A stretch of DNA of 64,000 nt from Nemertoderma westbladi (taxonomy: Eukaryota; Animalia; Xenacoelomorpha). The stretch spans positions 19,108-83,107 of the forward strand of contig JAUCBJ010001560.1 of assembly GCA_032718475.1 (NCBI GenBank), given 5' to 3'. Positions 41,301-64,000 of the stretch are shown here, piece after piece; within the stretch, counting starts at the first letter, position 1, and every line of letters begins with the position of its first letter. Made by a program: the position numbers and the translations under genes. The notes under the pieces are model-generated. The model saw only the letters and a program-made list of their open reading frames with translations. It was not told the DNA's origin and ran no database searches.

Positions 41301-44300
41301 AGTGCAATGCAGTCAGTGAATCCACCCATGTTCCGGCTGCTAATCTAACTTCAATTTTAAACTATTTTGATATTATTAAATATATTATTAAAACTATTAA
41401 TGATATTCAAATTGTTAATCAATCCATAATTTTATGTTTAAATTACTTATTAAATTAAATTAATAATTCAGTAATTATGTCATTTTTTCATTTTTTCATT
41501 TTTTTTTCATTTTAAAATAGCATCCGGCCATGGTGGTAGGGTTCCGGGACCACGTACATAGGTTCTACACGTACAGTAGTTGATTGTTGTGACAGTATAA
41601 AGATGGTGTCTTCGTATCGGTACCAGAACTGTACAATTCCTGTTTCTCCTTAAAATACATACTGTTTTGACGTCTTGGCGATATGATTAACTACGGTATA
41701 TAGGCTGACCGGTGTATCGGTACCGTATACAGGTAATCAGTGTTGAAGTGAAAGTTATTGGTGGTGGTAGACCCCTAGTACTAAGTACAGGACTTATTCA
41801 TTACGCCCCAATGTAATATATAATAATTTCATGTGAACAGACTAGATTATATCTAAAATTACAGATTGATAATGAAAGATTTTGATTCCAAAATTGTAAC
41901 ATTACTCAACGCCGTTAGTATTAAGAGCGAGTTGTTATTTAGCACTTTACAACAACTACATTAGTGTTGTATTGGCCTGCACATTTAGTATTGGTGTTGT
42001 AATATCCTTTGTTTGTGGTAACCAATGACGGTGAACTGTAAAGTTACGGCGTCATTGGTTACCACGTAAACAATAGGTGGTATTTAATATTAATTGCCTG
42101 ACAGCAAGAAAGGCCTACAGTACAGCATTACCTACCGGTAGCTATTAATAACCAGCAGCTATAAACTATTAACATGGCTCCAAACGCCACCATAAATATA
42201 AGCTAATTTATTTATAACATAATTTATGTCATTTTTATATTTATTTATACAGCAACTAATATAATTTGTGCAGTTTCTATCACTTATAATGTGTATGTAC
42301 AATCATTTCGTAATGTTACAATTATTCGGAATAAAACTACATACATACTTGTTGCAAAGTACTTTACAGTGTTTTGATCCTCGTGGATTTATTATCACTC
42401 ACTCACTAACGTTCGTTCGTATAACAAAGCCACTCGGATCATCACACTGTAAAGTTCTACTTTACACACAAGTATGTAAATAGTTATATTTACCGCGTTA
42501 ACCTTTAGTACTGTATGCTAACATAGCTCAGTTAGCAAGGTGTCCTGCTTTCTCATTCTTCCTTGTCTATAAATTCTTGATGGCGGCTAGAATATAGGAT
42601 TACCCAACACAAAAGTAACAGAAACAAATTAAATTAGCTGACTAACAGTTAGGTCGGTCGCGTGGTCTGGGGCCATATTAAATCTGCGTTTGCGCTTTTT
42701 AATCTTTAGCGACGTAATGTAATCGCCGTCACATGGAGCCGCAGTCGTTGACACTGATTCTAAATTCAATATAAAAATACCTTAATTGGACATCTCATAA
42801 ATGAAAATCACCAAAACATTAATCGTGACTTCCGTGGTGTCCTTTGGGCGAAATGGTCTGTGTGCTAAGACAGACTTTGTTCTGTACATATTATGTATAG
42901 TAATAAGATAAAACTATATAAATACATTTACCATTAGGCCACCACAAACCGACAACAATCGAACAAATCGATAACAATGGTACAAGGTAACCCATGTGGG
43001 TGTAAAATTCGGAGGGGTGGGTTTTCGAGCCAAGATTTAACAAAATATTTGTTTTTTATTTAATCTGAAGCAACATTTAATGAGCATTTCAAATCTTAAA
43101 CTGGCTTTGCAAAATCCCCTTTAGTTCACGAGTTTTCGCCTTCATTGTTCATCTCTCACATGTAGACCTTTTCAATGATACTGGGCCTATTTGGGTGACT
43201 AACCTGGTCCCAATGATACTGGGCCTATTTGGGTGACTAACCTGGTCCCAATGACACTGGGCCTATATGGGTGACTAACCTGGTCCCAGTGATACTGGGC
43301 CTATTTGGGTGACTAACCTGGTCCCAATGACACTGGGCCTATATGGGTGACTAACCTGGTCCCAGTGATACTGGGCCTATTTGGGTGACTAACCTGGTCC
43401 CAATGATACTGGGCCTATTTGGGTGACTAACCTGGTCCCAATGACACTGGGCCTATATGGGTGACTAACCTGGTCCCAGTGATACTGGGCCTATTTGGGT
43501 GACTAACCTGGTCCCAATGACACTGGGCCTATATGGGTGACTAACCTGGTCCCAGTGATACTGGGCCTATTTGGGTGACTAACCTGGTCCCAATGATACT
43601 GGGCCTATTCGGGTGACTAACCTGGTCCCAATGATACTGGGCCTATTCGGGTGACTAACCTGGTCCCAATGATACTGGGCCTATTCGGGTGACTAACCTG
43701 GTCCCAATGATACTGGGCCTATTCGAGTGACTAACCTGGTCCCAATGATACTGGGCCTATTTGGGTGACTAACCTGGTCCCAATGATACTGCAGGAATGG
43801 GTTGACGAATTGCATCCTGATACCTTTGGAGACTATACCAATCAGGTTGTTGAATGTTGCTAGCATTCAACAGCTCTTTCAAATCGTTAATGTAGATAAT
43901 AGCAAGTCTGAGAGTCTCATATTTGCTTAATCTGTAAATGAATATATTACTATATAGGTACAGAATCACTGCTTAGTTAAACAGAATATTGCATGTGCAG
44001 CATGCAGAATCGCTGTCAGGATTCAATGTTCATTTTGACAAATGAGGCATCAACATCGGGAACATTTTATTGCCAAAACCCAACGCTACCATGAACCCTC
44101 CAAGGACGGAATGTCATGCCCGTCATTGACATTTTTTTTTATTTGACATTTTTTTTTTACTAGAAAGCCAGCAAGCTGGCTTTAAACGAACCTGCCCCTC
44201 AAACCAGTACCATGAGTGAGAGAAAATAAAAACACGATAATTGCCATCAACTCAACGATAGAAACACCAGCTTCTGGTACTCATGAGGGCCTAGTAAGCT

Positions 44301-45471
44301 ACTACTATTTATTGAATGGATAGCCCAAACTGCAGAGAAGTATATTACTTGCCAAATTTATTACTATCTAACTCTAACCCAGACAGTAATCAAACATAAA
44401 CTGTAAGTTTGTATAATGTATTACTCCACCAGATGAATAGCTCTTCCCAGTGAATCCTATGACAACATCTATAAGGTTACTCACTGCTATGTTAGGTGGG
44501 AGGGAGTTGATAATAATGAATGAGGAGGGACCCAACTAACACTACGTTTGTCTATGGACGGTCTCCTTATAGCCAGCCAGTTTACTGGCTTTTCTAGTTG
44601 AATCATATTATTCCGCAACTAAATAATTTACCCTTTTAGACGAATTTGTGCGTTTTTTTGCCGGACTAACAAATTTTGGCGACGTTCTGTGCGAGATTGG
44701 CGATATTTGAAAAGATTCTGAGGCTCAAATATGTTGCTCAAATGACTGAATATCTCAAATAAAAAAAGTTGGTGCATACTCGACGAGTTGAAATCGGTAA
44801 AATTCGACATTAAATTTTCAAAACCTGCTATTTTTCAGTGATCCCGTGATCGAAACGCCACAAAAAATATACAGTCTTGTGCGCAACAAAAATCTATGTA
44901 GAGTTTGTTATTAAAATTTTTGCGTACCTACTTGAGTTTTTGAGATATTGGATGGTTATACACACATACACAGATAACCACATCGTATTTTTGAACGGCT
45001 CAACTCTTGACAAAAACTACCCTGGCCTATTTATAGGCAGGTTCGTTATTAGACATTTTTCATAACAGCTGTTACCTCAGACTGGAGGGTGAAACGCAAA
45101 ATGATAAAATTGGATGGAATATAATTATCATAAGTATCATAATATATGCATTAGTCATCTATTATTCATTAGTGATAGTGACAGCGACATGGATTGCATT
45201 TTTCTCTAGGCCTATGCACGTTACGGTGCAGTCATTTAACATAATGCTCTATAATTATTACTTAGACTCGCATCACCCACCTGCATTTGTTCTCTGGGAG
45301 AGGAATGGCGTCCATAAGGTCCATGTAGGACTCGTTTAGTTTGTATACCCGGTTCCGTTCCCGAGCGTTGGCTTCCAGCCGTCGCTGGTCCTCAGAGCCG
45401 GGCTGCCGTAGATACTGGGAGGTGAGGTTCGCGGATGTGGAACAAATGGGATCGGGTTCGGTTGGGGTCAC
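38301..45471 (-). CDS. Atonal-related bHLH transcription factor, spliced. Exons 45281-45471, 43774-43931, probable 39879-40596, terminal 38301-38851
   Basis: Splicing at AG|gtgggt ... tttacag|A gives RRLEANARERNRVYKLNESYMDLMDAIPLPENKCRLSKYETLRLAIIYINDLKELL (atonal/NeuroD-type bHLH). The donors at 43774 and 39879 are both phase 1, matching the acceptor at 38851. Exon 39879-40596 starts in phase 0, so a linking exon is unresolved. Confidence 0.8.
41100..41280 (+). pseudogene. Fragment of a non-LTR retrotransposon ORF2 C-terminal zinc knuckle
   Basis: Translates as SHSVMIEQETWNSTPRNERYCPVCMFAVIEDEYHFLLKGPVYQDLR, the typical SHxLxIE..R.C..C...EDExHFL.CP.Y..LR motif, with a stop just upstream. 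Confidence 0.7.
42326..42495. mobile_element. Small palindromic MITE-like element
   Basis: Nested inverted pairs TACATACTTGT/ACAAGTATGTA and ACTTTACAGTG..GATCC/GGATC..CACTGTAAAGT. Confidence 0.5.
43173..43791 (-). repeat. 38-bp array, ~16 copies, made of a bHLH exon end plus its splice donor
   Basis: Minus-strand unit CAGTATCATTGGGACCAG|GTTAGTCACCCAAATAGGCC. The first copy overlaps the 3' end of exon 43774-43931. Confidence 0.93.
44159..45049 (-). mobile_element. Helentron/HINE-like element (copy 2), in the intron that splits the bHLH domain
   Basis: Colinear with 35239-36130, with the same subTIR and hairpin; inserted next to a T-run. Confidence 0.7.
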
Positions 45472-45958
45472 CTGTAGAATCACGGCTACGAAAACAATCA
45501 CAGAAAAAATTCAGATAACTGACTACTGTGCAACGTTTGAAATTAATATTAACAGTATACCAAGCTTTCTTTGGTCCTCCCACAAACAATTAGACAATAG
45601 GCCTACTTATCAAATAATTATCCGTTAACATTATTAAAAGAAAAATTTCCACAAGTTTTCCGACAAATAAACACGTTTCTTCCTCATAGGAAGGTTGGGG
45701 CGAAAGTAGAAACAGCCCACCATGGATTAAAATGGACTTTAAAATTCGAAATAATTTTAAGCTAAAGATCACCTCCAGTTTAGTCTACCACAATACCTCA
45801 TGAATATTTGCAGGAAATATTTTTTCAAAAAGTTTATTACACTACATTGGTTGGTCAGATATAGGCAGACGAATAAATCAATGTTTACAAAATCGTACCC
45901 AATTTTAGCAATCTGTTACCGTGGTAAGGAGAGCCATTAATAATGTAAATAAACTAAC

Positions 45959-46958
45959 AACTAGTATCTCCGACTGACAACGATTTTTCAAATTCCTCCA
46001 AAGCCTTTCTCATATTTAACAATCCATTGGTTTGCTCCTTTATCTTTTCAGGGGAGTTTTGACGTTTTTGTCTCCTTGGTGTGATCTTTACATCATTTGT
46101 GGGAGAAACATTGGTCTGCTGATGATTGGTTGTTGGCGGTCTGCTTGGGTGTTGAGTTAATGGCAATAATTGGTTGTGGTTGATTGTGATTGGCTGGGAG
46201 AGGGTTGGCGTAGCAACCAACTCCTCTGGAGGAATTCGGCTCCCAATAGGAAGATGGGCTAATGCTGCATGATGATTGGCCTTCACTTGCTGAAAAAAAA
46301 TAGTTACCAATAATTTAATTAAGTTAGGTAGCTCTTACATACCTACGGTTCAACTATCTCAGTATCGTAATCCTGACATGTTAAACTAATGATATTTTAT
46401 AAAATGATCCTAATCTTTAGATAACTAGGTCATGATCCAAAGATTCTAGATTAGGGATCATCCTTAAAAGTGAAGATCCTGATATAATTAAATCTAGATC
46501 CTGAAATTTCAAGTAAGGATCCTCAGAAACGAATTCAGGATCCTGAGAAAATATGTCAGGATCTTGAGGAAATAAGACAGGATCCATAGATACTATATCA
46601 GGATCCTGAGATAATTTAAACAACATTTAATCAACTTATAATATGAACTACATATACATCTGATATGCCTGTAGATATTCTCAGTTACTAATTTATTCCC
46701 TTATTGTTATACAAATAAAAGGAAGTGAATGGAATTGAATTGTGTTGAATAGAGAGAATTGAGTAAGCGAAACGAGCGCGATAATTTAAAAAATAGGTAA
46801 TTGTTTTACTTATTTTGGCTTTTAAATACGCCACGGCTGTAAATGTTACCATCACTGTATTTCTTAGTCAACACTTACCTTGTAAACAAAACTACCATTA
46901 TCTGTCTGTCGTGACGCCAACATAGGTAATCGCTTAGAATTCCTGGTTAATTCAAAAT
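45959..46958 (-). CDS. Two probable upstream coding exons (46879-46958 and 45959-46289), of the bHLH gene or a neighbouring gene
   Basis: Good acceptors (ttgttcag, tttttcag) and donors (gtaagt, gttagt), joining in frame as ...TDNGSFVYK|QVKANHH... The phase-1 end does not directly match the phase-0 exon at 45471. Confidence 0.5.
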
Positions 46959-48178
46959 CTGAACAAAACGATGTAATTGGCATATGTACGACTGAAAATA
47001 TATATAGGCTCATAAAACCCTAGATAGACGTAACAGTACGGTATGGTTTTCCCCTGTTTCGGTAATGGTGATTGGAGAGATTTATGTTGTTATGGTGTAG
47101 AATTTGTTAATGAAGAAAAAAATTAATTGAAAATTTTAATTCAAAATTACAATATATGAAAATATTTGTATTGAGTAAATGCTTAATTTGTTGTGGAAAT
47201 AAAGTATCATGCCTCTAAATTATGATGTGAAATACAGTTTTCAGCAGTGCATACTACTCCACTGTCTTAGAATATTATCTTAAATTTAAACTGCAACGTT
47301 TACTTAAATAAGGCCTAATGTAACAATGTAACCCTGGAGCAAGGTCAAGTGTCTGCTGCGGTAACGCACCTTTCAAAATGCAAACAAACTTATTTACTTT
47401 CTAATGATGGTATGGTAGGTAGGCTGCAATTATATAAACTTAATGTACCGGTAAGAATGATATGCAGTAAAGAATAGACTATTCTTCATAGAACTACATG
47501 GAATTACATTAGAGTACAATATAAATAAAACATTCACAGTGCTAAAATAGCACACGCATAATATTAATTAGTTATGTAGGTTGTGGGTAGCTACAATACT
47601 GCTATATAATTATCAATCCAGCAGTACACGTATTATAAGTATAAAAGAAAGAAGTTAATAATACTAATTGTCACCTCGGAATCCAATTATCACTATCACT
47701 TAGACATGAAGAGTAACTCCAATCCGCCCAACAATAATTGTGTGGAATGCCAAACCGGAACTCCAACATTTATTTATGTAGGCCTATTGTGTGTTGCGCT
47801 TTTTTATTAGATCGTGCGTTGTAGGTTAGTTTGTTGATATATTGGATTAATTTAATTTATTTTCTTATATAATTGGCAATTCAGACAGTAATCAGCCCAG
47901 TAGGGGGGGGGGGGGGGGGGGGGGGCTGTTGAAAACCAGTTTCCAGCGATACTAGGGGATAGGGGTGTGTGTGTGTGGGGGGGGGGGGCTGTTGAAAACC
48001 AGTATCCAGCGACACTAGGGGATAGGAGGGGGTGTGTGTGTGTGTGTGGGGGGGGGTATCACTATTCCAACCATTGCCTATAATTAATTCCACCGAAGAT
48101 TGTTCTTAGCCTTCAATCATTCGGTGACAGACCGACCAACTATTTGAATGTTGTCCCGATATTTGGGAGTTGTCCCCA

Positions 48179-50339
48179 GGGCCGAGTAACTCAAAAAATC
48201 ATGAGATTGCCCTTGAAATCCACTTCAAGGTCACCTTGAAACTCAAGTTTTACCTTGACTAAGATTTTCTTGAGTTTCAAGTCAAGCGCGTAACTCAAAG
48301 CAATACTTAGTCAAGGTGGAGCTTGAAATTTCAATGCTCACCTTGAGAATTAAAGATTGGCGACATATTTGTTTATTTCAGCAGTTGCCTTAGTTATGCA
48401 GTGAAACGAACTGTATAATCCCTGCAGTATACAGTTAGTAGGGCTATTGAATACAGGTTAAACCACTGTTGCAACACTGGCAATGGTAATTTCTATAACA
48501 CCACGGAACTTATAAACAGTTGTATAGAAAGCTGTAGTTAGTTTACCGACTACAGTAGCCTGTGAGGGGGTGAGCAATGTACTTCTAAAGGGAGGGGGGG
48601 GGGGGATATTTTTCGATACCACATTTTTTGAAACCAGCATGTTCATTTTCATCATATTTTCGGCCACTTTTTATGTTTTAATTTTCTATATCTGATAATT
48701 GCCAATTTTGTAAAAAAAAAATTAAAAAAAAAATGAAAAATAACATGTTTTTTCTAACTTATAATTGGAAAAAATTGAGAAATATTAATTGAAATTATTG
48801 CAGCAATCAGATCAGTATACGATGGTTCGACAACATTTGTGTCTACTGTTGACGGTGACACAGAACCATTTGAAGTGTTATGGGGCGTCCTCCAAGGAGA
48901 CACACTTGCACCATTCTTGTTCATAATTGTTGTTGACTATTTTCTACGCATGTCCTTAGATCATCATAATGATGATGGGGTGATGATAACTCCACCTACT
49001 GGCTCCAGAAGTCGAGGAAACCCTGCCAAGTACCTAACTGATCTAGACTTTGCTGATGACTTAGGAGTACTCTCAGAATCACTAGAGGGAGCCCAACGGC
49101 TCCTCAGCTCACTAGAACATGCTGCTTCTAGTGTTGGTCTTTTTATTAAATCCAGAAAGACCAAAATTTTGACAGTTAAATTTGAAAGTCCTCAGCAAGT
49201 CTCTGATCGGATGAGCATAAGCTCAAAATATGGTATGCTTGAGCATGTGGATGACTTATGTTACCTGGGATCATGGATCCGGAAGTCAGGTGAGGACCTT
49301 CGCATACGCAAGGGAAAGACATGGGCAGCCTTGAATAGGCTTTCCCGGATTTGGAAGTCACCGAGAATTAATCGGAAACTTAAGGTTCGATTATTTAGAG
49401 CAGCAGTAGTTCCAGTACTCCTCTATGGGAGTCCATGCTGGGCTCTAACTGCTGAGGACACAAAATCTCTGGATTGCACGTTCACAAGAATGCTACGCCG
49501 GGTTCATTGTGTCAAGTACAATGCACACATCTCCAACCAGACACTATATAACATTGTAGGTGTCTCATTGGTTCCCCCAAAGCTTGACACTAGAACAAAA
49601 TCGCCTCCGCTTTGCAGGACATTGCTTTCGCCGTGAGGACCAGCCAGTGCATAATCTTGTACTTTGGCAGCCTCATGGAGTGAATAAGCATGGTGGACAG
49701 CTCATGACTTTCTTGAGACGCATCTTAAAGGACACTGGCTTTGAAGATGCGGATGATCTAGCAAATGTCATTGGTGATAGGGAGTTGTGGCGGTGCAATT
49801 TTGTCGATAAGCCGGCACAGCATTCATAAAAATGCAGCTGCAATGCAGCATGCCGATCCTAGTAGTAGTAGAGAAATATTATGTAATCAAGAAAACTGGC
49901 CGAAATTTACTTAAGCTTAGGAAATTACCAAAAAATAAAAAATTACAAAAAACTAAAAGTAGTTTTCGTGTGAAAAAATGTCATTCAGAGATAATTGCTT
50001 TCAAAGTTCAAAAACATTTCGGGGTGGGGGGCATTCTGCAAAAATGCCTATTTTATGGTACCGGTAGCAGTAGGCTAACAGTAACAGCTAAAGCGATGAT
50101 TTGAGATACCTTGAAATTTGAAGGTACCTACATGGCTACCTTGAAATTTATCTCGAACCTTGACTTCAACTCAAGTCAAGATTTTTTGTGTTACCGGATT
50201 GAAATTTCAAGTTTACCTTGAGGAAAATCTTAATTCTACCTTAAGGTTGACCTTGACATTTTTCAGATAGGAATACTAGTAAAATAGATTCAAGGTTAGT
50301 TTCAAGGTCAATCTCAAGATTTTTTGAGTTACACGGCCC
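48179..50339. mobile_element. PIF/Harbinger-like non-autonomous TIR element, interrupted by an RTE copy
   Basis: ~40-bp TIR GGGCCGAGTAACTCAAAAAATCATGAGATTGCCCTTGAAA vs reverse complement GGGCCGTGTAACTCAAAAAATCTTGAGATTGACCTTGAAA; subterminal CTTGA/TCAAG motifs. TSD not clear. Confidence 0.7.
48790..49870 (+). mobile_element. RTE LINE, 5'-truncated (copy 3)
   Basis: RT motifs, one frameshift near 49580, (TAG)n tail, and an 11-bp TSD GAGAAATATTA (48777-48787 and 49871-49881). Confidence 0.94.
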
Positions 50340-50877
50340 ATACGTATGACTGTTTTCCTGCGTCTTTCCGGCGACATGCGGTGCCGAAACTTTTGACAAT
50401 TACTTTTAGGACTGTGATCTGCTGTTATTCACAGTGTTTGTGGATGGGCATTTTTGTCTTTGTGGTCTACTGTTTATTTATTGTAGCTTAATTAATTTAT
50501 ATACTGTATAATATAGACTGCAATTTAAATAATAACTAATTACAACTACCAGTAGATTGTTCCGGAACAAGCAACTCCAAATTATACTTTAATATTAGGC
50601 CCAAACTATTTACAACTTGGTGATCCATTTATACCAATTAAACAATTTGAAAAATTCCACCCAAGATAGTTTTAGTAACAAAGTTTTCCTTTTGCAGTGG
50701 TTTTTCATCAGCAATCGTTTTGTAATTCTATATAATTAAGGAATAAAGCTACTTTACTTACTTTTGTTGTCAACTAATTTACATGTATCTGATCCTCGTA
50801 TATCTACTGTATTTGTACACACTCACCCCTACCTTCGTCTGTGAACAATAACATAAAGTTTAGAGGTCGCTTCTGAT

Positions 50878-51743
50878 CAGGGGCGCAGCCACGTTCCCAA
50901 AAGTGGGGGGACGATAAAACAATGAGGTTCGGCATAACCACGCCCCCCCCCCCCCCCCCACACAAAACTTTTTTTTTACAAATCTTAATGAGATTGTATG
51001 AAATGTGAAACATCGATAGTTTCAACTCCCTCCTCCTCCGTGGAAGAGCCATAATTTTTATTTTCGCTTTCATTCATAAGCTACAAAAAAAAGGTGTTTA
51101 AAAGATAGAAATAAGCGCTATACAAGGACAACTCTACAGTTGATTACAGTTCTACTGTAAACCTTTCAAAAAACTCAAAGACACCTACCTAACGCATTCG
51201 TGTACAGAAAAATTCAGAATTGATTACATATTTAGTTTCCCTGCAACAACGTCATCTTCCATTCGTTACCAACGAACCCTCTATAAGATTAAAATGTCGA
51301 CTGAGATCTACTGACCTATATAAAGCAGGTAAGGATTGAAAGAAAAGGCGGGTTGATATCTCGACACGGGAAATTAACAAAAAATTTAATTATCAATAAA
51401 TTTGTTTTAGTTATTCTACCGAAAACAATATAAGACGAAATTGTGGGGATAAGAAAATACACCTTATATTATCAGACTTATATTGTCAGGGCAAAAACAG
51501 TTCATGGTGTTTGGAAATATGGGACAGGGTTGGGAAGGATTGAAATGTACGTAGGAGTTAGTAATAGTTACACTGTAATACCCGATCAGAGATTAATACG
51601 ATTATTTGAATTTTAAATTGTGTATACAAAGTGTAAAAAGTGCCGGCGACTTATGATATGGTGTCCCCCCCTACCTGAAAAGTGGGAGGGACGTGTCCCC
51701 CCCGTCCCCCCCCCCCCCCCCCCCCCCTATGGCTGCGCCACTG
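50878..51743. mobile_element. hAT-like non-autonomous element
   Basis: TIR CAGGGGCGCAGCCA / TGGCTGCGCCACTG and a perfect 8-bp TSD CTTCTGAT (50870-50877 and 51744-51751). Confidence 0.88.
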
Positions 51744-53842
51744 CTTCTGATCCCACGGCATGAGAATACTTCACGGAATTAAATTAATAAAAAATATTAT
51801 TAGCGCGTATTATAATAATTTAAATATCCCCTGATCAAAGCACCGTGGATGAATAGTCATATAAACATCCCGTAGTGCCAATCTCTCAACTTACTACATA
51901 ATTAATTTAATACGTTTAAATATAATTGTACATAGTAAGACTTTTACTATGCATTAACCCTATTGTAATATCTTTAACTAATTCCTATATAGTCGCTGCG
52001 CTCAAGACGAACGCTAGCATAAAGCCTCTATGGTGCTGCGACTAGTACCTCAGTAAATAGAGCAAAATCTAAATGAATTAGTAGATAATAAATAATTAAG
52101 GACAGCTAACTATACCTTTTCTAACATCAAGAACAACAATAACTGCATTAAGTTTTGGCATTGTAAGGAATACTTCTTGTTTTCTAGACAAGCCTCCTTA
52201 CATTACAGCATATCAGCCAAGAGCCAATAGCGTGTTAGAACAACAAATATCAGCTGATTGAGATGTGCTCTCGGTCTGTCAGTAGGAGACGTATGAACTT
52301 GCAAACATTTGACTGTTTGATTTGGTTTGATTGTTAATTAGATCTGTACTGCTGTACTGTACGGTACTCGTACTGCAACGTACCGTACACCGTAGGGTAG
52401 ATCAGTTGTAAGCCTCCTCGTCTAATGTATTGTCGTAGATTACGCAACTGCTGGCCTGGGCTGTGGGCAGTCTGGCAGTACAGCTTTACATTATTATTAA
52501 CTTGAACGATGCGATGTCTGGATGGTACATGGTAGTCGAGTGCAACGCAACAGCAACAGTGCAGGGCAGGGGTGCTCATGCAGTTCCGTACTATTGGCGG
52601 ATACGCGGATAAGGCTGTAAGTCGGTAGGCCCAGAGTATGGAGTAGGCCTACATCAGTACGGTTATGCCCGGGACCCGGCTAGTCCTCCTGCCAGCTTGC
52701 TAGTGGCACTTTACGAGTACAGGAGTAGGAGTAGGCATACATTACACCAACACCAGTAGGCCAAGCTGTACTACTATACTATACACTATAGGTCATCATC
52801 ACTCGTAGTTTGTCGTAGTCCTAATGACTGTTATAACCTAATCCATTTTGTGATATTATAATTTTCTGTGCGGAATGCAAAGATGAGCCGAGTATGAACA
52901 AATTCAGCACAGGTCTGCGTTTAATACAGCAATGTTGTGTCGGATATCGAATAGTCTTGTATTTGGTATTTCAGTTCCTACCTCCAGTACTTGGGGAATA
53001 ATCACACTCATTTGCGCACCACCCCAAACAGCCATCTTATGTTTATGTATGTTATGATTAATTTTTATTGACCACCGCTCACGCGCAAGGGTCTTGCCAG
53101 ATTCTTGGATTCATCTTTGTCATCAAAAGATGTAGAATCTGAGTGGAGCGAGAAACCTGCTTATACTGTAGCCGCGGAGATCATTCGATAAAACAGGATA
53201 TACCGCGAGGGCGAGCGGACATATTGACATACGTGTTACCAACATTCAACTAAATGGGTCATTTAGCCATGTAAATTACCATCAGACCATGTCAGAATGT
53301 GGCGGTGGCGGAAGAGTACACACATGGCGGTATATCGGTTTATTTATTATTGATTCTAACTATCGAATCTATTACATGTTGCATGTTTTTATAATACAAT
53401 GCCGGTACCGGTACGAGGTAAAACTTAACGAATTTGTTATTATTTCGTAAAATTATCTAAATTTTCATATCATATATTTCGACTTTTTTTATCCCCATTC
53501 ATTGCGGTATTATATTTACTTCTAGTAATTTCGACGCAAAATTAAAACGCTACATCAGAACATTGTATTGGCATTTATTGAGGTAACTCTAGGCGGATAC
53601 CAATTAGTTTGGTTAGGGTTAGCTGGTCAGTTTTATACCCTGCTGCCCTGATTAAAACAATAATGAAACCCTGATCCGAAATCTCAAAGCAGGCAAAATT
53701 TTTTGGACAAAGCACGCGAAATTTCTTGAAAAACATTTAATGGTTTTTAGGTTAACATTAATTTAAATTAGGGTTATAGTCGAAAATGATCCCTGCCTGA
53801 TCATTCTGGAATTTACTGATCTGTGAATTATAAAGTTTGAAT

Positions 53843-56800
53843 ATGTCTGGAAGCAGTGTTGTTGTGCCCATTGTACTTTGGGGAAAGAATCCGCCTACAC
53901 ATTGCGTTTCTACAATTATTATAACAAATGATCAGAAAACAATATGTACCGGTTCCCATGATGGCCAGTTACTTCTGTGGGATGTAAGTTAAGTTTTGAA
54001 TTTGTTATAGATAACGGTAATATAACGGATATATGTTACCGGTAATAACTCCTATTTTAGTTAGGTCATTCGCTACTATACAAAGACTTACCCTAATGGT
54101 ATCCTTAATGTCGATAAAATGTAAACTAAATATGTACCGGTCCGGTAGGTAGTGCCTCATTGTGTTAATGTAACATGAATATGGCCGTAAAATAAAATGG
54201 AAAAGGAAATGGCCGTAAGATAATATGGAGATAACCACAGTGTAAAATAGAAATAGCCGTAAAATAATATTACTTTGGCCTTACCGTATATATAAAAAAA
54301 AGAAAAAATACCAAAAGAAAGAGTTTTAGGAGCAACACCGAAACATTACGAGATTTTAATTTTTGTAGATTAATGGGCTGGACGTTAAGCCGCGTCTGCT
54401 ATTACTAGGACATTCCACCGCCATCAGCTGTTTGTCTAAAACTCCGGATTCCTCGTGCATATACAGCGCTTCGGAAAACGGGTAGGTCCTGTAAAGTGCT
54501 ACTTTACACAACATTAGGTTATATACATACAATTGTTATTACTATCCCACATAAATTATGTTTATAATGTCGGACAAAAAATGTTACCTCCTTTTTGTGA
54601 AGTAAACAGTTAACTGTTGGAATTTTTGTTTTAGATTCTTATAAAATTTTTAATTTAATTTATATTTCAAATTCAAATAGAGGAGAAGAGATGGGAGGGG
54701 GGTGATTCTTTAATATACGAGGTGATGGGGGAAATGAAAGCAGGTAGATATAACTATTTGACTTCAGTCTTATAATCCTTTGTTTTACACGACTAGGGAG
54801 ATCTGCCTTTGGGATGTATCTGACGGCCGCTGCATGCAGACCTCCAAGCAAGGCGGCGCCCACACTGGAATGGTCACTTTCTACACCCAACAGTCAAGTG
54901 GCTCGCCCCAGGGTGGACGTGAATTGAGATTACTCACCCACGGTGTCTACCCTGTACTCCAGGTACGTTACTATGGTTACTCACCCACGGTGTCTACCCT
55001 GTACTCCAGGTACGTTACTATGGTTACTCACCCACGGTGTCTACCCTGTACTCCAGGTACGTTACTATGGTTACTCACCCACGGTGTCTACCCTGTACTC
55101 CAGGTACGTTACTATGGTTACTCACCCACGGTGTCTACCCTGTACTCCAGGTACGTTACTATGGTTACTCACCCACGGTGTCTACCCTGTACTCCAGGTA
55201 CGTTACTATGGTTACTCACCCACGGTGTCTACCCTGTACTCCAGGTACGTTACTATGGTTACTCACCCACGGTGTCTACCATGTACTCCAGGTACGTTAC
55301 TATGGTTACTCATCCACGGTGTCTACCCTGTACTCCAGGTACGTTACTATGGTTACTCACCCACGGTGTCTACCCTGTACTCCAGGTACGTTACTATGGT
55401 TACTCACCCACGGTGTCTACCATGTACTCCAGGTACGTTACTATGGTTACTCATCCACGGTGTCTACCCTGTACTCCAGGTACGTTACTATGGTTACTCA
55501 TCCACGGTGTCTACTTGTAAACAGTAAGGCATATATCATTTACCGAAATTTCAGTCTTTATAAAACTTCCAAGGATACCTACATAAGTAACATTTAATTT
55601 AATTTAGATTAGAACCTCATGACCTAGGGTTTATGGTTCAATTACAACTTTAATTATTGCTTGTGACTGACCAACAAATTATAACCCCAAAAAAACGAAC
55701 CAATATCAGGATAAGTACTACTGATTAGGCACTTATCAAGATTGACCAACTAACTAAGCGGCAAAAGTTGCTTTATATTCTCTAAATTATTGCGAATATT
55801 ATTTTTGATTGTCTCAGTTGGTTGTTTCTTGATAAAGTTGCTAAAACGCCTTTAGAGCGAGTCGATTTTATGGTCACGTTGTCTGTGAAACTCTGATGAA
55901 ATGAGAAATTACTTAATTCGACGATGAGAAAAGTTCTTCATTCGAGATTGAATTGGAAAATCTCTGCGCTGCGCTGCTGATAGCAAAATAAATGGTCATA
56001 ATATGTCGACCGTCGAAAAGGTAAGGTAAAAGAAGCCAGGCTGTTATTATCTGGTTGAATTCATTGTAACATCGTCAATCATTCACCCAGAAGATGATAG
56101 ATGGAATACGGAATAGGTAATCTACTTCGGTTGAACTGGTTGGACAACGAAACCTCAGCGAAAACCGAACCTTGGATCGTAAACCTTGGAACGCGATCAG
56201 CCAGGCATCCATCGACGCACACACACCCGTGCATCCCCCGTGCCCCTGTCTACCATACCGAATCGGCACCTCACAATGTTCACACAAGGGTTCGACTCTC
56301 CCGACGCAAGTTCGAGGTAAACGGGAACGTTCGTCGCCGGCAGCTGGTGTAGCATTGAATCGGAGACCGAATGTTACGCGCTCAGTACAGCAGCTATCGC
56401 TAGGATGACGATTCAGTGGGCGGGAATCTAGCGCTCAGTGAACACATCGCAGATAACGGCTTCCCTCGCGTACCGAACCTGGGCTGGACAAAACGGAGCA
56501 GAAAAACGTATACCTGTATTCCAGTTTACCAACGAGAATACCCTCGGCTCAGCTAAGACCTGATGCGAAAAACTGTTTTTACGGAAGTATGTTGCTATCA
56601 CCTGGCGACGGGCCCCCACGGCCCGGGTGCCTGGTAAGTGGGGGGTTGTTGTGAGTTTTTAAAACTCTCAGGAATTCAGTGAAGTTTACCGAGGAGTTGA
56701 CCTTTAATACAGAAATAAATAGTAATGCAGTTAGATTGTTATTGAAATACGCTACAGATACAGAAAAGGTTGTTTTACTTCAGGTACAATAAATATAATA

Positions 56801-59800
56801 ATAGCTCCATATCTTACACATAGCTTACCTTGCTTACATATAATACTGCGCAATACAATACACAATTAAATTAGTTATAAAAAAATCAATAAATATTGCA
56901 TCCAAATTGGCTTTGAGCACTACTACTGCTGTTAGCTAATGAATTACTGAATTAAAATGTTAAGCGTTCGTTACCCGAGGGTTTCGTCCGACAATCGAAT
57001 ATCGGTTAACATCGACAATATCGACTTCATATCGGTGGTCATGTTCCGTGCCATATCGTTCTGCATTCCGATTACCTCTGCCATATCGGCTAATAGTTGC
57101 GCGTGATCCTCTTTCACCTTAGCCAACCTCTCCATTACGTTATCCTGGCGCCTCTCCAAGTTGTCCGCGGGTTCTGCTGACGGACTTCCGGGGACCTCGG
57201 GTTTACTTTTGCATTCACCGAACTCCACTCCCCAATCCTTCTCGACGTTCTCGATTTCTGTGCTGGTTTCTTTCATTTTCTTCTCGATTGCAGTAAATGA
57301 GCTCAACATATTCTCACTGTACTCGCTCAGGTTCTTCTGCACTTGCGTCATGGTGGAGTTTATACTGTCAGCTCCTCCTTCCGCCATTGTATTGTTGTCC
57401 CGGTGCCGGTAGTAATGATAGGGCTTCTGTATTTTGTTTATAGAACCGTTCCCTAACTCTATAGGTACGGTACTGCGTAAGCCAGTAAGCGACGGTAGCT
57501 CTTCCCATTCACTGAATCGGAATCCGCGAATTAGCCGGCCAAATTATCAAATAGCCATCTCCCGATATTACAGTATTAGACAGTAGTTCAGTAGTTATCG
57601 TATAATAAATAAAGGTGATACGTTTTATTATATTACTGTATTATCAGGGGGGCCTACCATATTGTACCAGTCAGTAGTGTACCGGTACATCGGTACATCA
57701 TAGACACTGTAGTTCAGAAACAGCCTGTGAAACGAACTGTATTACAGCAGACGGTTGTAAGTTTGTTATGGATGTCTGCTGTCTGCGTAACATTTACACA
57801 TTATTACGAGACAGGGAGTGACGAAAACCTCATATTGGCGAATTAATATTTCGTCTCCATGTTAATTTATGGAAATGTGCAGGTTACAGTGGCACATTAT
57901 TCTAACCAAAACAATAAACAAAAGTCAATAGAACAGTTTTTTATTTTTGAGAGTAATCAGTTCAATTTCAATTTCAATCCGGGAAGGCCCGGCCCTTTAT
58001 TTAATCTCACAGCAGACAATATTATGATGACAATACAATATTATACTTACAATTATCACGATTAACAATACAATGTCTTTCATCAATACACAAAATACAG
58101 ATATTATTACAACAGGATAAGTTTGAATGATATAAATTGAATTGCACCAACGGATTGCCGTAGCGAAGTGGCACCCGTTATGTGCTAAATAAATTGTACA
58201 CATATTATCTGGTGATTGGCGGGGTGCGGGGGATACTCGGTAGAATACATTTTCAGCGTGAATTTGTTTAATTTTAATGAGATATCATGAAAACGTGTTG
58301 TTGGTGTACTGGTGGTGGGGAAACTGACTTGACTTGTCGGATAAGATTCTATAAATACTTTGTTGTTATAACGTTATATATTATCTAGATAATGTTGTGA
58401 GTAATCAGAATTTCATCCATGAGGTTGCTTAGCTTGGACCAATAAATTAATTGGTCGACATAATCTATATCGATTATTTGAAAGCTATTATGTAACTTTT
58501 GGAGACAGGGGGGGGGGGGGGGGGGGGGGACTGGACGCAAAACCCGCCTTGGCGAATTAATATCCCGCCTCAATGTTAAATTCTCAATTTGGGAAAAGGA
58601 GCAGGTTACAGTGGCACGTTACTTTAACCAAAACAATAAACTAAGCACAATAGAACAGTTACAGTTTATTTTTCAGAATAATCAGCTGTTATTTGCGTCG
58701 AATTTCCCCTGGAGAGGGATTAATTTTTATTGCGTCCAGTTTATTTTTACTGGGTTTCTAGGCTATTGTGCATTTGCAGTGCAGTCATATATTATGGTGA
58801 TATTATTATTAAATCGCATCAGGGATCCCATTGAGAGACTGCTACGTGGAAATCAGAATGGGTTCCGTAAAGGTCGTGGGACCATGGAGCCCATTTTGGC
58901 ACTTAGAAGGATAATTGAAGAGTTATCAAAAAAGAAAGACAGGCATCTGGCTGTTATCTTTGTTGACTTCTTCAAGGCCTTTGATTCAGTCTCTCGCTCA
59001 CGTATGTTCAGCATACTTTCATTATATGGGATTCCTGATGAAATTATTGCAGCAATCAGATCAGTATACGATGGTTCAACAACATTTGTGTCTACTGTTG
59101 ACGGTGACACAGAACCATTTGAAGTGTTATGGGGCGTCCTCCAAGGAGACACACTTGCACCATTCTTGTTCATTATTGTGGTTGACTATGTTCTACGCAT
59201 GTCCTTAGATCATCATAATGATGATGGGGTGATGATAACTCCACCTACTGGCTCCAGAAGTCGAGGAAATCCTGCCAAGTACCTAACTGATCTAGACTTT
59301 GCTGATGACTTAGGAGTACTCTCAGAATCATTAGAGGGAGCCCAGCGGCTCCTCAGCTCATTAGAACATGCTGCTTCTAGTGTTGGTCTTTTTATTAACT
59401 CCAGAAAGACCAAAATTCTGACAGTTAACTTTGAAAGTCCTCAGCAAGTCTCTGATCGGATGAGCATAAGCTCAAAGGATGGTATGCTTGAGCATGTGGA
59501 CGACTTCTGTTACCTGGGATCATGGATCCGGAAGTCAGGTGAGGACCTTCGAATACGTAAGGGAAAGGCATGGGCAGCCTTGAATAGGCTTTCCAGGATT
59601 TGGAAGTCACCTAGAATTAATCGGAAACTTAAGGTCCGATTATTTAGAGCAGCAGTAGTTCCAGTACTCCTCTACGGGAGTCCATGCTGGGCTCTAACTG
59701 CTGAGGACACCAAATCTCTGGATGGCACATTCACAAGAATGCTACGCCGGGTACATTGTGTCAAGTACAATGCACACATCTCCAACCAGACACTATATAA

Positions 59801-61556
59801 CATTGGAGGTGTCTCATTGGTTCCCCCAAGCTTGACACTAGAACAAAATCGGCTCCGCTTTGCAGGACATTGCTTTCGCCGTGAGGACCAGCCAGTGCAT
59901 AATCTTGTACTTTGGCAGCCTCATGGAGTGAATAAGCATGGTGGACAACCCATGACTTTCTTGAGACGCATCTTAAAGGACACTGGCCTTGAAGATGCGG
60001 ATGATCTAGCAAATGTCATGGGTGATAGGGAGTTGTGGCGGTGCGATTTTGTCGATAAGCCGGCACAGCATTCTTAAAAATGCAGCTGCAATGCAGCATG
60101 CCGATCCTAGTAGTAGTATGGTGGGCCTAGCTACTAAGTGTAGTAAGTTGTGAAGTGTAGTTTATTTGCTTGTGTATATAGATGTTTGAGGTACTTCTAA
60201 ATGAAAAGTAGTCTGCCAAACCAGTGTCGATCCGATAATTTTATTGAACGTTATCACATTTGGCACCTGTTCGGCGTTTATCCGCCTTTCCTGGCAAATG
60301 TAAACGAAATTTCTCACATGTTTCAAACATTCATAATTTACAAGTTATTTATGAATTCACTGTGAATTTATATTGCAGGTATTGGACGGACTTTCTCTTT
60401 GTCTACTCTACCGTCTGGCTTCCCGTCTCTCACCTGATTGGATATCTTGCCTCACTGTATTTCGCCCTGTATCCATACAAGGTAAATAGATAGATAGAAA
60501 GATGACTTCCTCTCTCCTCCGTGTCATACTTTGTGTAAAGAACTAAAACACTAATAGAAGTAAAGGTTCTTAATTAAAATAGTAAAGCAATGTAACTATA
60601 ATAAAGTAATTATAAGTATATTGTTGACCATTACCTTATTTTGTAGAGGAGACAGTTATAGCTGTAACCAGCAGTGGAGTCCTCAAGGTGTGGTCATTGG
60701 CTGCTGCCCCTAGCAACGACGTTGTGTATGAGGAAGACTCCAGAGAACTACGATGTCTTAATGCCCAATGTATAGTATGCTGCCCCTTCAACCAACGTAC
60801 TGTTCTTGTCGTCTGTAATAAATATTGGCACGTTAGTAATAATATACGATATATTCCAAGGTTGTTTATTAAACAAAGGGACTTAAAATAATTACGGGTA
60901 GCATTAATTTTGAGAGACTGGTGTCCTTAGGTGTTATTGTATTATTACATTTTCCCACTTATATAAATTATTTTTTAATTTTATTGTATAATGCCATTTT
61001 TAGCAAATCTTGAAGTCGGATCTCTGGCCCTAGAGGTCGTGAGTTCGGGCCCCGCAAGGGGACGACCAGGACTACGACTTTTATGTTAATAAAGGCTGGT
61101 GCTTGTGCTGCTCTAGGTTGTATTTTATTGCACCCTATTGTACTTTATTTTAACTTTATTTTATTTATTAAGTTAAATAGTTATAATGTAGTCTTATTTT
61201 GTACTATTTGTCGTACTTAGTACATTGTGTTTTTTTTTCAACGTTACGATTCTATATTTCTCTGTTACTATGTGCGTTTTTTTCAATATGTAATTATTTA
61301 ATTTGGCGACAATAAATCTAATCTAATATAATCTAGACATACAATATTCCTCTATTATTATAGTTAGTATTTACTACAGTAGAATTTATACTGGGTCTAT
61401 AACTTTACAGATATATGACGCCACCGATTACTCTTTACTATGTTCCGTCAGCCACACACAGGGGCAGCGTTGGGCCGGTGGTCATTTTATTGCCAAAGAT
61501 GAGGTGATTGTTTGGACCGGCGAAGGTGTAGGGTATCTCTACAGAGTTCCATCAAA
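53843..61556 (+). CDS. WDR7: WD repeat protein 7 (rabconnectin-3 beta), 5' part. Exons 53843-53983, 54369-54481, 54797-54962, 60379-60481, 60647-60831, 61411-61556; continues past the window
   Basis: All junctions are GT-AG and phase-consistent. The spliced protein MSGSSVVVPIVLWGKNPPTHCVS...GHSTAISCLSK...SASENGEICLWDVSDGRC...RLLTHGVYP...SPDWIS...GVLKVW...QRTVLVVCNKYW...DYSLLCS...VWT is colinear with the WDR7 N-terminus (VLPIVLWGRKAPTHCIS...). Confidence 0.93.
54930..55514 (+). repeat. 47-bp array, ~12.4 copies, made of the WDR7 exon 3 end plus its donor
   Basis: Unit TTACTCACCCACGGTGTCTACCCTGTACTCCAG|GTACGTTACTATGG (33 nt exon + 14 nt intron). Confidence 0.96.
56971..57387 (-). CDS. Nested antisense intronless 138-aa coiled-coil protein, SKA2-like (tentative)
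   Basis: ATG in a good context (CAATGG), GC-richer than its flanks, AATAAA-poor but T-rich 3' flank. Helix spacing (IEKKMKETSTEIENVE...EF...NVMERLAKVKEDHAQL...Q) resembles spindle/kinetochore protein SKA2. Confidence 0.6.
   Translation of the reverse strand: MAEGGADSINSTMTQVQKNLSEYSENMLSSFTAIEKKMKETSTEIENVEKDWGVEFGECKSKPEVPGSPSAEPADNLERRQDNVMERLAKVKEDHAQLLADMAEVIGMQNDMARNMTTDMKSILSMLTDIRLSDETLG
58800..60116 (+). mobile_element. RTE LINE, 5'-truncated with an intact RT reading frame (copy 4), in WDR7 intron 3
   Basis: Open from LLNRIRDPIERLLRGNQNGFR to the stop at 60077; (TAG)n tail; 7-bp TSD TATGGTG (58793-58799 and 60117-60123). Confidence 0.95.
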
Positions 61557-64000
61557 GTAAGTTCCGTTGTATCTCTACAGAGTTCCATCAAAGTAAGTTC
61601 CGTTGTATCTCTACAGAGTCCCTACAAAGTAAGTTCTGTTGTATCTCTACAGAGTTCCTACAAAGTAAGTTCTGTTGTATCTCTACAGAGTTCCATCAAA
61701 GTAAGTTCCGTTGTATCTCTACAGAGTTCCGTCAAAGTAAGTTCCGTTGTATCTCTACAGAGTCCCTTCAAAGTAAGTTCAGTTGTATCTCTACAGAGTT
61801 CCTTCAAAGTAAGTTCCGTTGTATCTCTACAGAGTCCCGTCAAAGTAGGTTCCGTTGTATCTCTACAGAGTTCCATCAAAGTAAGTTCCGTTGTATCTCT
61901 ACAGAGTCCCGTCAAAGTAAGTTCCATTGTATCTCTACAGAGTTCCATCAAAGTAAGTTCCGTTGTATCTCTACAGAGTTCCATCAAAGTAAGTTCCGTT
62001 GTATCTCTACAGAGTCCCGTCAAAGTAGGTTCCGTTGTATCTCTACAGAGTCCCGTCAAAGTAAGTTCCGTTGTATCTCTACAGAATTCCTACAAAGTAA
62101 GTTCCGTTGTATCTCTACAGAGTCCCTTCAAAGTAAGTTCCGTTGTATCTCTACAGAGTCCCTTCAAAGTAAGTTACGTTGTATCTCTACAGAGTTCCTT
62201 CAAAGTAAGTTCCGTTGTATCTCTACAGAGTTCCATTAAAGTAAGTTCCGTTGTATCTCTAGAGAGTTCCATCAAAGTAAGTTCCGTTGTATCTCTACAG
62301 AGTCCCGTCAAAGTAAGTTCCATTGTATCTCTACAGAGTTCCATCAAAGTAAGTTCCGTTGTATCTCTACAGAGTCCCGTCAAAGTAAGTTCCATTGTAT
62401 CTCTACAGAGTTCCATCAAAGTAAGTTCCGTTGTATCTCTACAGAGTCCCTTCAAAGTAAGTTCCGTTGTATCTCTACAAAGTCCCTTCAAAGTAAGTTC
62501 CGTTGTATCTCTACAGAGTCCCTTCAAAGTAAGTTCCGTTGTATCTCTACAGAGTTCCTTCAAAGTAAGTTCCGTTGTATATCTACAGAGTCCCTTCAAA
62601 GTAAGTTCCGTTGTATCTCTCTCTATAGAGTCCCGCCAAAGTAAGTTCCGTTGTATCTCTACAGAATTCCTACAAAGTAAGTTCCGTTGTATCTCTACAG
62701 AGTCCCTTCAAAGTAAGTTCCGTTGTATCTCTACAGAGTCCCTTCAAAGTAAGTTCCGTTGTATCTCTACAGAGTCCCTTCAAAGTAAGTTCAGTTGTAT
62801 CTCTACAGAGTTCCTTCAAAGTAAGTTCCGTTGTATCTCTACAGAGTCCCGTCAAAGTAGGTTCCGTTGTATCTCTACAGAGTTCCATCAAAGTAAGTTC
62901 CGTTGTATCTCTACAGAGTCCCGTCAAAGTAAGTTCCATTGTATCTCTACAGAGTTCCATCAAAGTAAGTTCCGTTGTATCTCTACAGAGTTCCATCAAA
63001 GTAAGTTCCGTTGTATCTCTACAGAGTCCCGTCAAAGTAGGTTCCGTTGTATCTCTACAAAGTCCCTTCAAAGTAAGTTCCGTTGTATCTCTACAGAGTC
63101 CCTTCAAAGTAAGTTCCGTTGTATCTCTACAAAGTCCCTTCAAAGTAAGTTCCGTTGTATCTCTACAGAGTCCCTTCAAAGTAAGTTCCGTTGTATCTCT
63201 ACAGAGTTCCTTCAAAGTAAGTTCCGTTGTATATCTACAGAGTCTCTTCAAAGTAAGTTCCGTTGTATCTCTCTCTATAGAGTTCCATCAAAGTAAGTTC
63301 CGTTGTATCTCTACAGAGTCCCTTCAAAGTAAGTTCCGTTGTATATCTACAGAGTCCCTTCAAAGTAAGTTCCGTTGTATCTCTCTCTATAGAGTTCCGT
63401 CAAAGTAAGTTCCGTTGTATCTCTACAGAGTTCCATCGAAGTAAGTTCCGTTGTATCTCTACAGAGTTCCATCGAAGTAAGTTCCGTTGTATCTCTACAG
63501 AGTCCCTTCAAAGTAAGTTCCGTTGTATCTCTACAGAGTCCCTTCAAAGTAAGTTCCGTTGTATCTCTCTCTATAGAGTCCCGCCAAAGTAAGTTCCGCT
63601 GTATCTCTACAGAGTTCCTTCAAAGTAAGTTCCGTTGTATCTCTACAGAGTTCCATCAAAGTAAGTTCCGTTGTATCTCTACAGAGTTCCATCAAAGTAA
63701 GTTCCGTTGTATCTCTACAGAGTCCCGCCAAAGTAAGTTCCGTTGTATCTCTACAGAGTTCCATCAAAGTAAGTTCCGTTGTATCTCTACAGAGTCCCTT
63801 CAAAGTAAGTTCCGTTGTATCTCTACAGAGTCCCTTCAAAGTAAGTTCCGTTGTATCTCTACAGAGTCCCTTCAAAGTAAGTTCCGTTGTATCTCTACAG
63901 AGTTCCATCAAAGTAAGTTCCGTTGTATCTCTACAGAGTCCCTTCAAAGTAAGTTCCGTTGTATCTCTCTCTATAGAGTTCCGTCAAAGTAAGTTCCGTT
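61533..64000 (+). repeat. 36-bp array, at least 68 copies, made of the WDR7 exon 6 end plus its donor; runs off the window
   Basis: Unit GTATCTCTACAGAGTTCCATCAAA|GTAAGTTCCGTT (24 nt exon + 12 nt intron), with occasional 40-bp variants. Confidence 0.97.

What the first reader, a model, noticed from the sequence alone, without database searches (positions are those of the whole stretch)
43173..64000. Recurrent minisatellite arrays seeded exactly at exon 3' ends and splice donors
Seen in sequence: three unrelated arrays (38 bp x16 in the bHLH gene; 47 bp x12 and 36 bp x68+ in WDR7) each begin inside a coding exon. Each unit is 18-33 nt of the exon end plus 12-20 nt of intron including the GT donor, and each array extends downstream into the intron on the gene's own strand. 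That covers about 3 of the ~11 donors identifiable here. Inference: some process repeatedly amplifies 5' splice junctions, for example transcription/R-loop- or splicing-coupled slippage, or rolling-circle/template-switch copying. The spliceosome must then choose the first of dozens of near-identical donors, or ratchet through them. I do not recognise a named system for this.
Basis: partly seen in the sequence, partly recalled or inferred. Interest (0 to 1): 0.88.

Follow-up and report, generated by a model that had tools for sequence, protein, structure and literature searches.

The report
Splice-donor "mirage" minisatellites in two genes
Three short stretches that straddle the end of an exon have been copied head to tail 12 to 68 or more times into the next intron of two animal genes, and the messenger RNA seen uses the first, genuine splice signal (shown for two, inferred for the third), so they are likely harmless repeats of a kind already known from lancelets and a few human genes, although here they sit on exon ends more often than chance predicts.

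Summary
Three unrelated arrays (38 bp x16, 47 bp x12, 36 bp x68+) each copy an exon end plus its GT donor into the intron of a bHLH gene and of WDR7/Rbcn-3B. A spliced contig joins the first donor straight to the next exon for both WDR7 arrays; contig depth implies the same for the bHLH array. DNA contigs from another study break 29-30 bases inside each array, as expected if the arrays are real. The system is known: lancelet 'mirages' and the human F7, 6-16, CBS, LAMIN B2 and PDGF minisatellites; F7 experiments show that the most upstream donor wins. The scan has noted such arrays before in other genomes. The downstream polarity is forced by geometry and says nothing about mechanism. Ratcheting is unsupported: one array has no AG at its donor, and the other two have AGs that score like background. 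What stays open is frequency: 3 of 8 large arrays sit on donors against about 0.1 expected (P about 1e-4 to 1e-3). That comes from one selected window, and no genome was held to test it. Verdict: new members of a known kind, birth bias unexplained.

The parts
43173..43791 (-). Array 1: 38-bp minisatellite, 16 full units plus an 11-nt partial; unit = last 18 nt of a bHLH exon + first 20 nt of the intron (CAG|GTTAGT); an in-frame TAG follows the first donor
   Evidence: X2 contig ends at 43763, 29 nt inside the array
43774..43931 (-). bHLH exon encoding helix 2; its 3' end is unit 1 of array 1; donor GT at 43773-43772
   Evidence: Pfam HLH positions 36-53; ORF model and depth match 26.7 = 26.7
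45281..45485 (-). bHLH exon encoding the basic region and helix 1 (no array)
   Evidence: Pfam HLH E 6e-08; depth 34.6 predicted and observed
45959..46289 (-). Upstream bHLH exon (no array)
   Evidence: piece of a 1957-nt X4 contig
42647..42759 (-). Predicted next bHLH exon after array 1 (phase 1 to 0); further predicted exons at 39879-40596 and 38301-38851
53843..54481 (+). WDR7/Rbcn-3B coding exons 1 (53843-53983) and 2 (54369-54481), no arrays
54797..54962 (+). WDR7 exon 3; its last 33 nt are unit 1 of array 2; donor GT at 54963
   Evidence: spliced contig joins 54962 to 60379
54930..55514 (+). Array 2: 47-bp minisatellite, 12 full units plus a 21-nt partial; unit = 33 nt exon + 14 nt intron (CAG|GTACGT); no in-frame stop on read-through
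   Evidence: X2 contig ends at 54959, 30 nt inside the array
60379..60831 (+). WDR7 exons 4 (60379-60481) and 5 (60647-60831), no arrays
   Evidence: GT-AG joints in the X4 contig
61411..61556 (+). WDR7 exon 6; its last 24 nt are unit 1 of array 3; donor GT at 61557
   Evidence: X4 contig covers 61411-61556 and then runs into other letters; homology
61533..64000 (+). Array 3: 36-bp minisatellite, 68 units of 23 types up to the window end; unit = 24 nt exon + 12 nt intron (AAA|GTAAGT); in-frame TAA after the first donor; an 8-unit block recurs at units 7 and 35
   Evidence: high-depth repeat contigs in X1, X2 and X3, and a diverged X3 haplotype ends at 61562

Best explanation
These are junction-spanning ('mirage', F7-type) minisatellites: a 36-47-bp piece straddling an exon end was likely duplicated in place as DNA and then likely expanded by ordinary minisatellite turnover, and it would be tolerated because the spliceosome takes the first donor (shown for two arrays, inferred for the third) and removes all other copies with the intron. 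Shown: unit anatomy, real exon ends, first-donor use in the dominant WDR7 transcript, arrays in a second study's DNA, internal block duplications. Inferred: (1) Birth as a local DNA duplication (slippage or break-repair fill-in). The unit contains intron sequence, so spliced mRNA was not the template. (2) Growth by unequal exchange or conversion. (3) First-donor choice by 5'-to-3' priority as in human F7; leaky use of later donors would mostly hit stops or frameshifts and be degraded. (4) The clustering at donors reflects a genome that makes many arrays (about 23% of this window), a modest excess of duplications at exon edges that survive only when in frame or across a junction, and the selection of this window for showing the pattern.
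For: Units and intact GT in all copies. Spliced contig uses donor 1 at 54963 and 61557; depth fits donor 1 at 43773. Contigs of X2 and X3 stop 29-30 nt inside each array. Five other large arrays not on identified splice sites, one sharing sequence with a dispersed repeat, have the same make: units of 25-68 bp and partial end units of 4-30 nt, against 11 and 21 nt for arrays 1 and 2. Repeated blocks of variant units. No significant conservation of the donor in the copies: 2 of 24 variant types fall in -3..+6, 5.4 expected, P=0.07. In-frame stop at the next codon for arrays 1 and 3; a 47-nt frameshift for most array-2 donors. Three other coding repeats in the window all have periods divisible by 3. 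Precedents: PMC1557585, PMC3087553, PMC3902484.
Against: The local excess is large: 23- to 32-fold, 95% interval about 5- to 90-fold. A 2-fold bias would give three hits only with P about 0.001, so simple neutrality leans on ascertainment that I cannot quantify. The exon-born idea has weak support: in-frame coding repeats occur at 0.33 per kb vs 0.25 per kb in non-coding DNA, P=0.44, or P=0.06 if two thirds are assumed purged. The trend to fewer variants around the donor (P=0.07) runs towards selection. The bHLH contig is 39 nt shorter downstream than my exon model predicts (1453 vs 1492), which is unexplained. Contigs drop rare isoforms, so leak to later donors is not excluded.
Confidence: 0.68

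Rival explanations
1. A transcription- or splicing-coupled DNA lesion or stall at exon-intron junctions (polymerase pause, R-loop, nucleosome edge) makes short duplications arise at junctions many times more often than elsewhere; the arrays are neutral footprints of that mutational process.
For: 3 of 8 large arrays on 13 donors, P 9e-5 unmatched and 2e-4 GC-matched. Several mirages per gene in lancelets, with origin called unclear. The scan's unchecked notes record recurrence in other genomes (leads only).
Against: One window, chosen for the pattern. The units form no unusual hairpins (z from -0.4 to +1.1), and the exon ends show no consistent GC skew. End geometry is the same as in non-junction arrays. 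In humans 3 of 467 expanded VNTRs overlap coding ends against about 2.4 expected by a rough estimate with recalled genome numbers.
Confidence: 0.2
2. The copies are kept by selection as extra U1 sites: decoys that tune splicing, protect a long intron from early cleavage, or give a small poison isoform through a stop just behind later donors.
For: GT intact in 96 of 96 full copies; fewer variants than expected at -3..+6 (P=0.07); in-frame stops behind arrays 1 and 3; 6-16 and CBS use one or two extra donors (PMC1557585 introduction).
Against: Only 1.2 GT variants were expected, so zero is unremarkable (P=0.30). The dominant contig uses donor 1. The genes are unrelated and the copy numbers range from 12 to 68+. 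Stops arise from the donor consensus itself.
Confidence: 0.07
3. The spliceosome ratchets through the copies (recursive or dual-specific AG|GT sites).
For: Arrays 1 and 2 carry AG|GT in every unit; dual-specific sites in tandem repeats are used in human UBC and VCX3A (passages). Zero-length steps would be invisible in mature mRNA.
Against: Array 3 has AAA|GT, with no AG. The AGs of arrays 1 and 2 score -5.3 and -2.8, against -2.2 to 6.6 for 12 true acceptors and a background median of -3.8 (a small model). Steps of 38-47 nt are shorter than the shortest intron seen here (165 nt).
Confidence: 0.04
4. The arrays are assembly or library artefacts.
For: No long reads were seen and total lengths are unverified.
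Against: Units carry heritable-looking variants in repeated blocks. Short-read contigs of X2 and X3 break at the array edges, and single repeat contigs reach depth 1920 against 26 for single-copy DNA in X1.
Confidence: 0.01

Closest known systems
Lancelet 'mirage' minisatellites (Adh3, troponin C, globins BflGb6/BflGb9, PGBD5); PMC3087553 and PMC3902484, passages read; the original Adh3 paper was not held
   Same: Tandem copies of an exon-intron boundary, several per gene or region, units from 10-72 bp (Adh3) to about 160 bp, normal mRNA still made, origin described as unclear.
   Different: Another animal (lineage not determined here); higher copy numbers (12 to 68+ vs 2-7 in the passages read); only donor-side arrays in this window, whereas lancelets have both sides.
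Human F7 intron 7 37-bp VNTR (Borensztajn et al. 2006, PMC1557585; parts 1, 4 and 5 of 6 read: abstract, introduction, end of results, discussion, methods)
   Same: First unit spans the exon end and the donor, identical donors follow, only the most upstream is used; nearly the same unit size.
   Different: F7 units hold 4 nt of exon, these hold 18-33 nt; 5-9 copies vs up to 68+; three arrays within 21 kb here.
Human 6-16 (IFI6), CBS intron 13, LAMIN B2 and PDGF intron 4 minisatellites (seen only as described in the introduction of PMC1557585)
   Same: Donor-spanning arrays of 10-25 copies; LAMIN B2 and PDGF use only the authentic donor.
   Different: 6-16 and CBS also use one or two extra donors; such leak could not be seen or excluded here.
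Dual-specific AG|GT arrays (UBC, VCX3A; PMC10809524, passages) and recursive splice sites
   Same: Arrays 1 and 2 have AG|GT in each unit.
   Different: There the units are exonic and variably included; here the dominant mRNA holds one unit end only, and the AGs are not acceptor-like.

Membership tests
Mirage / F7-type junction-spanning minisatellite | Head-to-tail array of a minisatellite-sized unit | tested here: met
   38, 47 and 36 bp units, 92-98% matches
Mirage / F7-type junction-spanning minisatellite | Unit spans a real exon-intron boundary of the host gene | tested here: met
   spliced contig and homology for both WDR7 donors; ORF, Pfam and depth for the bHLH donor
Mirage / F7-type junction-spanning minisatellite | Terminal unit is the authentic junction; other copies lie in the intron | tested here: met
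Mirage / F7-type junction-spanning minisatellite | Normal mRNA is made from the authentic site | tested here: met
   one contig from one run for WDR7; indirect for bHLH; rare isoforms are not visible in contigs
Mirage / F7-type junction-spanning minisatellite | Copy-number polymorphism or instability between alleles | not testable with these tools
   short-read contigs collapse arrays; only internal block duplications were seen
Recursive (ratchet) splice sites | Acceptor-like tract and AG directly before the GT | tested here: not met
   array 3 has no AG; arrays 1 and 2 score at the 31st and 59th percentile of 223 background AGs with a model from 12 acceptors
Recursive (ratchet) splice sites | Intermediates or lariats in nascent RNA | not testable with these tools
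   all runs laid were contigs
Dual-specific splice-site arrays (UBC type) | mRNA includes variable numbers of units | tested here: inconclusive
   the dominant contig has one unit end; minor forms cannot be excluded
Copies templated by spliced mRNA (retro-insertion) | Unit lacks intron sequence | tested here: not met
   each unit has 12-20 nt of intron

The most novel reading that the evidence does not exclude
Splice junctions are true mutational hotspots for short tandem duplication in this animal, many-fold above background, because transcription or spliceosome assembly destabilises the DNA at exon ends. Mirages would then be the genome-wide footprint of a splicing-coupled mutational process that seeds minisatellites and supplies raw material for intron gain and donor shifts.
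Probability: 0.2. Interest if true: 0.72.

Novelty: new member of a known kind. Interest (0 to 1): 0.3.

Why it matters
As it stands, it adds three examples to a described class and shows first-donor choice holding in an animal other than mammals or lancelets against at least 67 near-identical competing donors. It is also a warning for gene annotation and read mapping. The open point is how mirages are born, which the lancelet globin paper calls unclear. An array-rich genome like this one (8 large arrays in 64 kb) would make a genome-wide test well powered. A strong expression-dependent excess at junctions would tie splicing to mutation; a weak one would close the question as tolerance plus ascertainment.

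Tried and rejected
(1) Genome-wide test: no genome is held for this window, and the scan has no notes on this genome.
(2) Orthologous introns in relatives: organisms B and C (X6, X7) gave listed pieces only on repeats or of about 40 nt, so no comparison was possible.
(3) No RNA holder was listed as such. X4 is labelled 'DNA?', and I treat it as RNA because its contigs skip GT-AG introns and leave most intron bins empty.
(4) My first idea that acceptor-spanning arrays are purged was dropped: BflGb6 is acceptor-side, and 3 of 13 vs 0 of 12 is not significant.
(5) A special end signature (arrays ending in exon-derived partial units): non-junction arrays have similar overhangs.
(6) Hairpin-prone units: no. 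Stronger donors or GC-richer exon ends at arrayed sites: no clear difference among 13 donors. Polar divergence along array 3: none (rho -0.06, P=0.62).
(7) Relic duplications at the other 10 donors and 12 acceptors: longest repeat 12 nt or less.
(8) The bHLH 'GGT TAG' as a true stop: rejected by the 1453 nt of contig beyond the upstream exon and the 706-aa ORF. Contig length alone does not pick the donor (1453 observed; 1492 and 1530 predicted).
(9) A homolog search with the long C1-PH-CNH protein, meant to place the organism, found nothing among 7991 candidates.
(10) Papers whose passages did not bear on the question: PMC6823432, PMC12783039, PMC10078293, bioRxiv 2022.03.26.485930; PMC5941971 mentions one junction-spanning VNTR in FAM20C. 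Canestro 2002, Zhuo 2007 and Gao & Lynch 2009 were not held.
Full report
Observation. Tandem Repeats Finder confirms the three arrays at 43173-43791 (38 bp x16.3), 54930-55514 (47 bp x12.4) and 61533-64000 (36 bp x68, open-ended). Cut in gene orientation, the units are 18+20, 33+14 and 24+12 nt of exon plus intron, and all 96 full copies keep the GT. They share no 13-mer with anything else in the window. The window holds five more large arrays (66, 41, 68, 41 split by a LINE, and 25/30 bp); arrays make up 14.5 of 64 kb.

The exons are real. The first WDR7 exon finds an insect Rbcn-3B/WDR7, and six exons joined in a script give 284 codons without a stop, 46% identical to it. Run X4, labelled 'DNA?' but evidently RNA because its contigs skip GT-AG introns, has one 2451-nt contig covering exons 2-6. 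Record positions 2172 and 2171 put 54962 directly next to 60379, and the contig leaves at 61556 into further sequence. Both WDR7 arrays therefore start at used donors, and the first copy is the one used in the dominant transcript. This rests on one contig from one run, and contigs drop rare forms. For the bHLH gene, two exons carry the halves of Pfam HLH, and a seven-exon model gives a 706-aa ORF. An X4 contig of depth 63.6 predicts bin depths of 34.6 for the upstream exon and 26.7 for the array exon with donor 1 (33.1 with donor 2); observed were 34.6 and 26.7. This is indirect, and the contig is 39 nt shorter downstream than the model predicts.

The arrays are real DNA. Contigs of X2 end at 43763 and 54959, and a contig of X3 with 13 other letters over 950 nt ends at 61562. 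These points lie 29-30 nt inside the arrays, where a short-read assembly graph breaks at a repeat (the 31-letter word size is my assumption). Single array-3 contigs reach depth 1920 against 26 for single-copy DNA in X1; X1 may be the source of the window. Variant units recur in blocks: a two-unit pattern in array 1, a three-unit block in array 2, and an eight-unit block at units 7 and 35 of array 3. Lengths are not verified.

More than chance? I identified 13 donors (9 with contig support, direct or by depth; 3 from the ORF model; 1 from consensus) and 12 acceptors. Three donors and no acceptor carry an array, and the other 22 sites have no repeat longer than 12 nt. With eight large arrays seeded at random outside fully coding positions, 0.095 hits are expected (P 9e-5), 0.128 with GC matching (P 2e-4), and P stays at or below 1e-3 with up to 25 donors. 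The fold is 23-32, interval about 5-90. The window was picked from a very large scan for this pattern, so the estimate is inflated, and no genome was held for a fair test. Donor versus acceptor is not significant (P=0.22). The shared downstream direction is a geometric necessity, not evidence.

Mechanism. The unit contains intron sequence, so the template was DNA or pre-mRNA. The arrays look like their non-junction neighbours in unit size and partial end units, form no unusual hairpins and show no polar divergence. I infer a local duplication followed by ordinary turnover. [quoted passage not shown] Leak would meet an immediate stop in arrays 1 and 3 and a frameshift at two of every three array-2 donors. 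Selection on the copies is not shown: 2 of 24 variant types lie at -3..+6 against 5.4 expected (P=0.07), and none in GT against 1.2 expected (P=0.30). Ratcheting is unlikely: array 3 has no AG at the donor, and the others score like background AGs. Why exon ends are favoured remains the unexplained step. An excess of duplications starting in exons, filtered by selection, is my best guess. It fits three in-frame coding repeats in the window but is statistically weak.

Known systems. The arrangement is in print twice over: as lancelet 'mirages' (PMC3087553 and PMC3902484, passages) and as human junction VNTRs in F7, 6-16, CBS, LAMIN B2 and PDGF. Four of five defining features were tested and met; length polymorphism was not testable. 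The globin paper states that the mechanism of generation is unclear. Nine searches of the held library listed no genome-wide test of junction enrichment by title or abstract; subscription papers are mostly missing, and three cited papers were not held. No supplements were opened. Among 467 human-specific VNTRs, three overlap coding ends (PMC8327921, passage), close to the 2.4 I estimate with recalled genome figures, which argues against a universal strong bias. The scan's own notes report donor and acceptor arrays in other genomes, one with about a two-fold excess; they are unchecked leads and gave me the mirage literature.

Verdict. Real, correctly described, and a new member of a known kind. 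Interest 0.3. The residual novelty is a possible junction-biased mutational process (probability 0.2, interest 0.72 if true).

Noticed in passing
window 58820-60110, 48780-49870, 24320-25520, 27030-28007: Four copies of one LINE (Pfam RVT_1), one inserted inside the 41-bp array. Contigs from two other organisms (X6, X7) match it with only 22-23 differences over about 860 nt while showing little else of the window: horizontal transfer or contamination.
   Followed up: no
window 13878-18196, minus strand: Intronless ORF of about 1440 aa with a long coiled-coil-like region, C1, PH and CNH domains but no kinase domain, with a sharp rise in GC; no homolog among 7991 candidates. A citron/MRCK-like gene (name recalled), possibly retroposed.
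   Followed up: partly
array 3, unit positions equal to 61571-61576: Loose contig ends in X1 enter before 61571 and leave after 61576, a 6-nt overlap that may mark an insertion with a target-site duplication further inside the array, beyond the window.
   Followed up: no
window 61570-61580 and each array-3 unit: Each unit has an acceptor-like CAG 12 nt before its donor (82nd percentile of background), a potential in-frame 12-nt micro-exon; not seen in the contig.
   Followed up: partly
window 15919-15989, 26270-26349, 38500-38636: Three coding tandem repeats, all with periods divisible by 3 (33, 21, 21).
   Followed up: partly
window 5617-9259 and 31633-35236: Both large arrays abut tRNA/SINE-like fragments on their left side; the 66-bp array ends about 40 nt from a donor-like site on the minus strand near 9299, untested.
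   Followed up: no
window 21743-22384: The 68-bp unit shares sequence with a dispersed repeat at 9817, 57900 and 58595, so this array is probably element-derived.
   Followed up: partly
window 50869-51742: An X2 contig lacks this 874-nt stretch: a polymorphic insertion.
   Followed up: no
window 52000-53843: The bHLH gene and WDR7 lie head to head with X4 contigs in between; 4 of 13 donors read GTTAGT.
   Followed up: no
WDR7: Human WDR7 also carries a 69-bp VNTR linked to ALS (PMC8327921, passage); nothing ties it to these arrays.
   Followed up: no
window 1-50 and 5030-5210: The first 180 bases of the window recur at 5030-5210, a dispersed repeat or short duplication.
   Followed up: no
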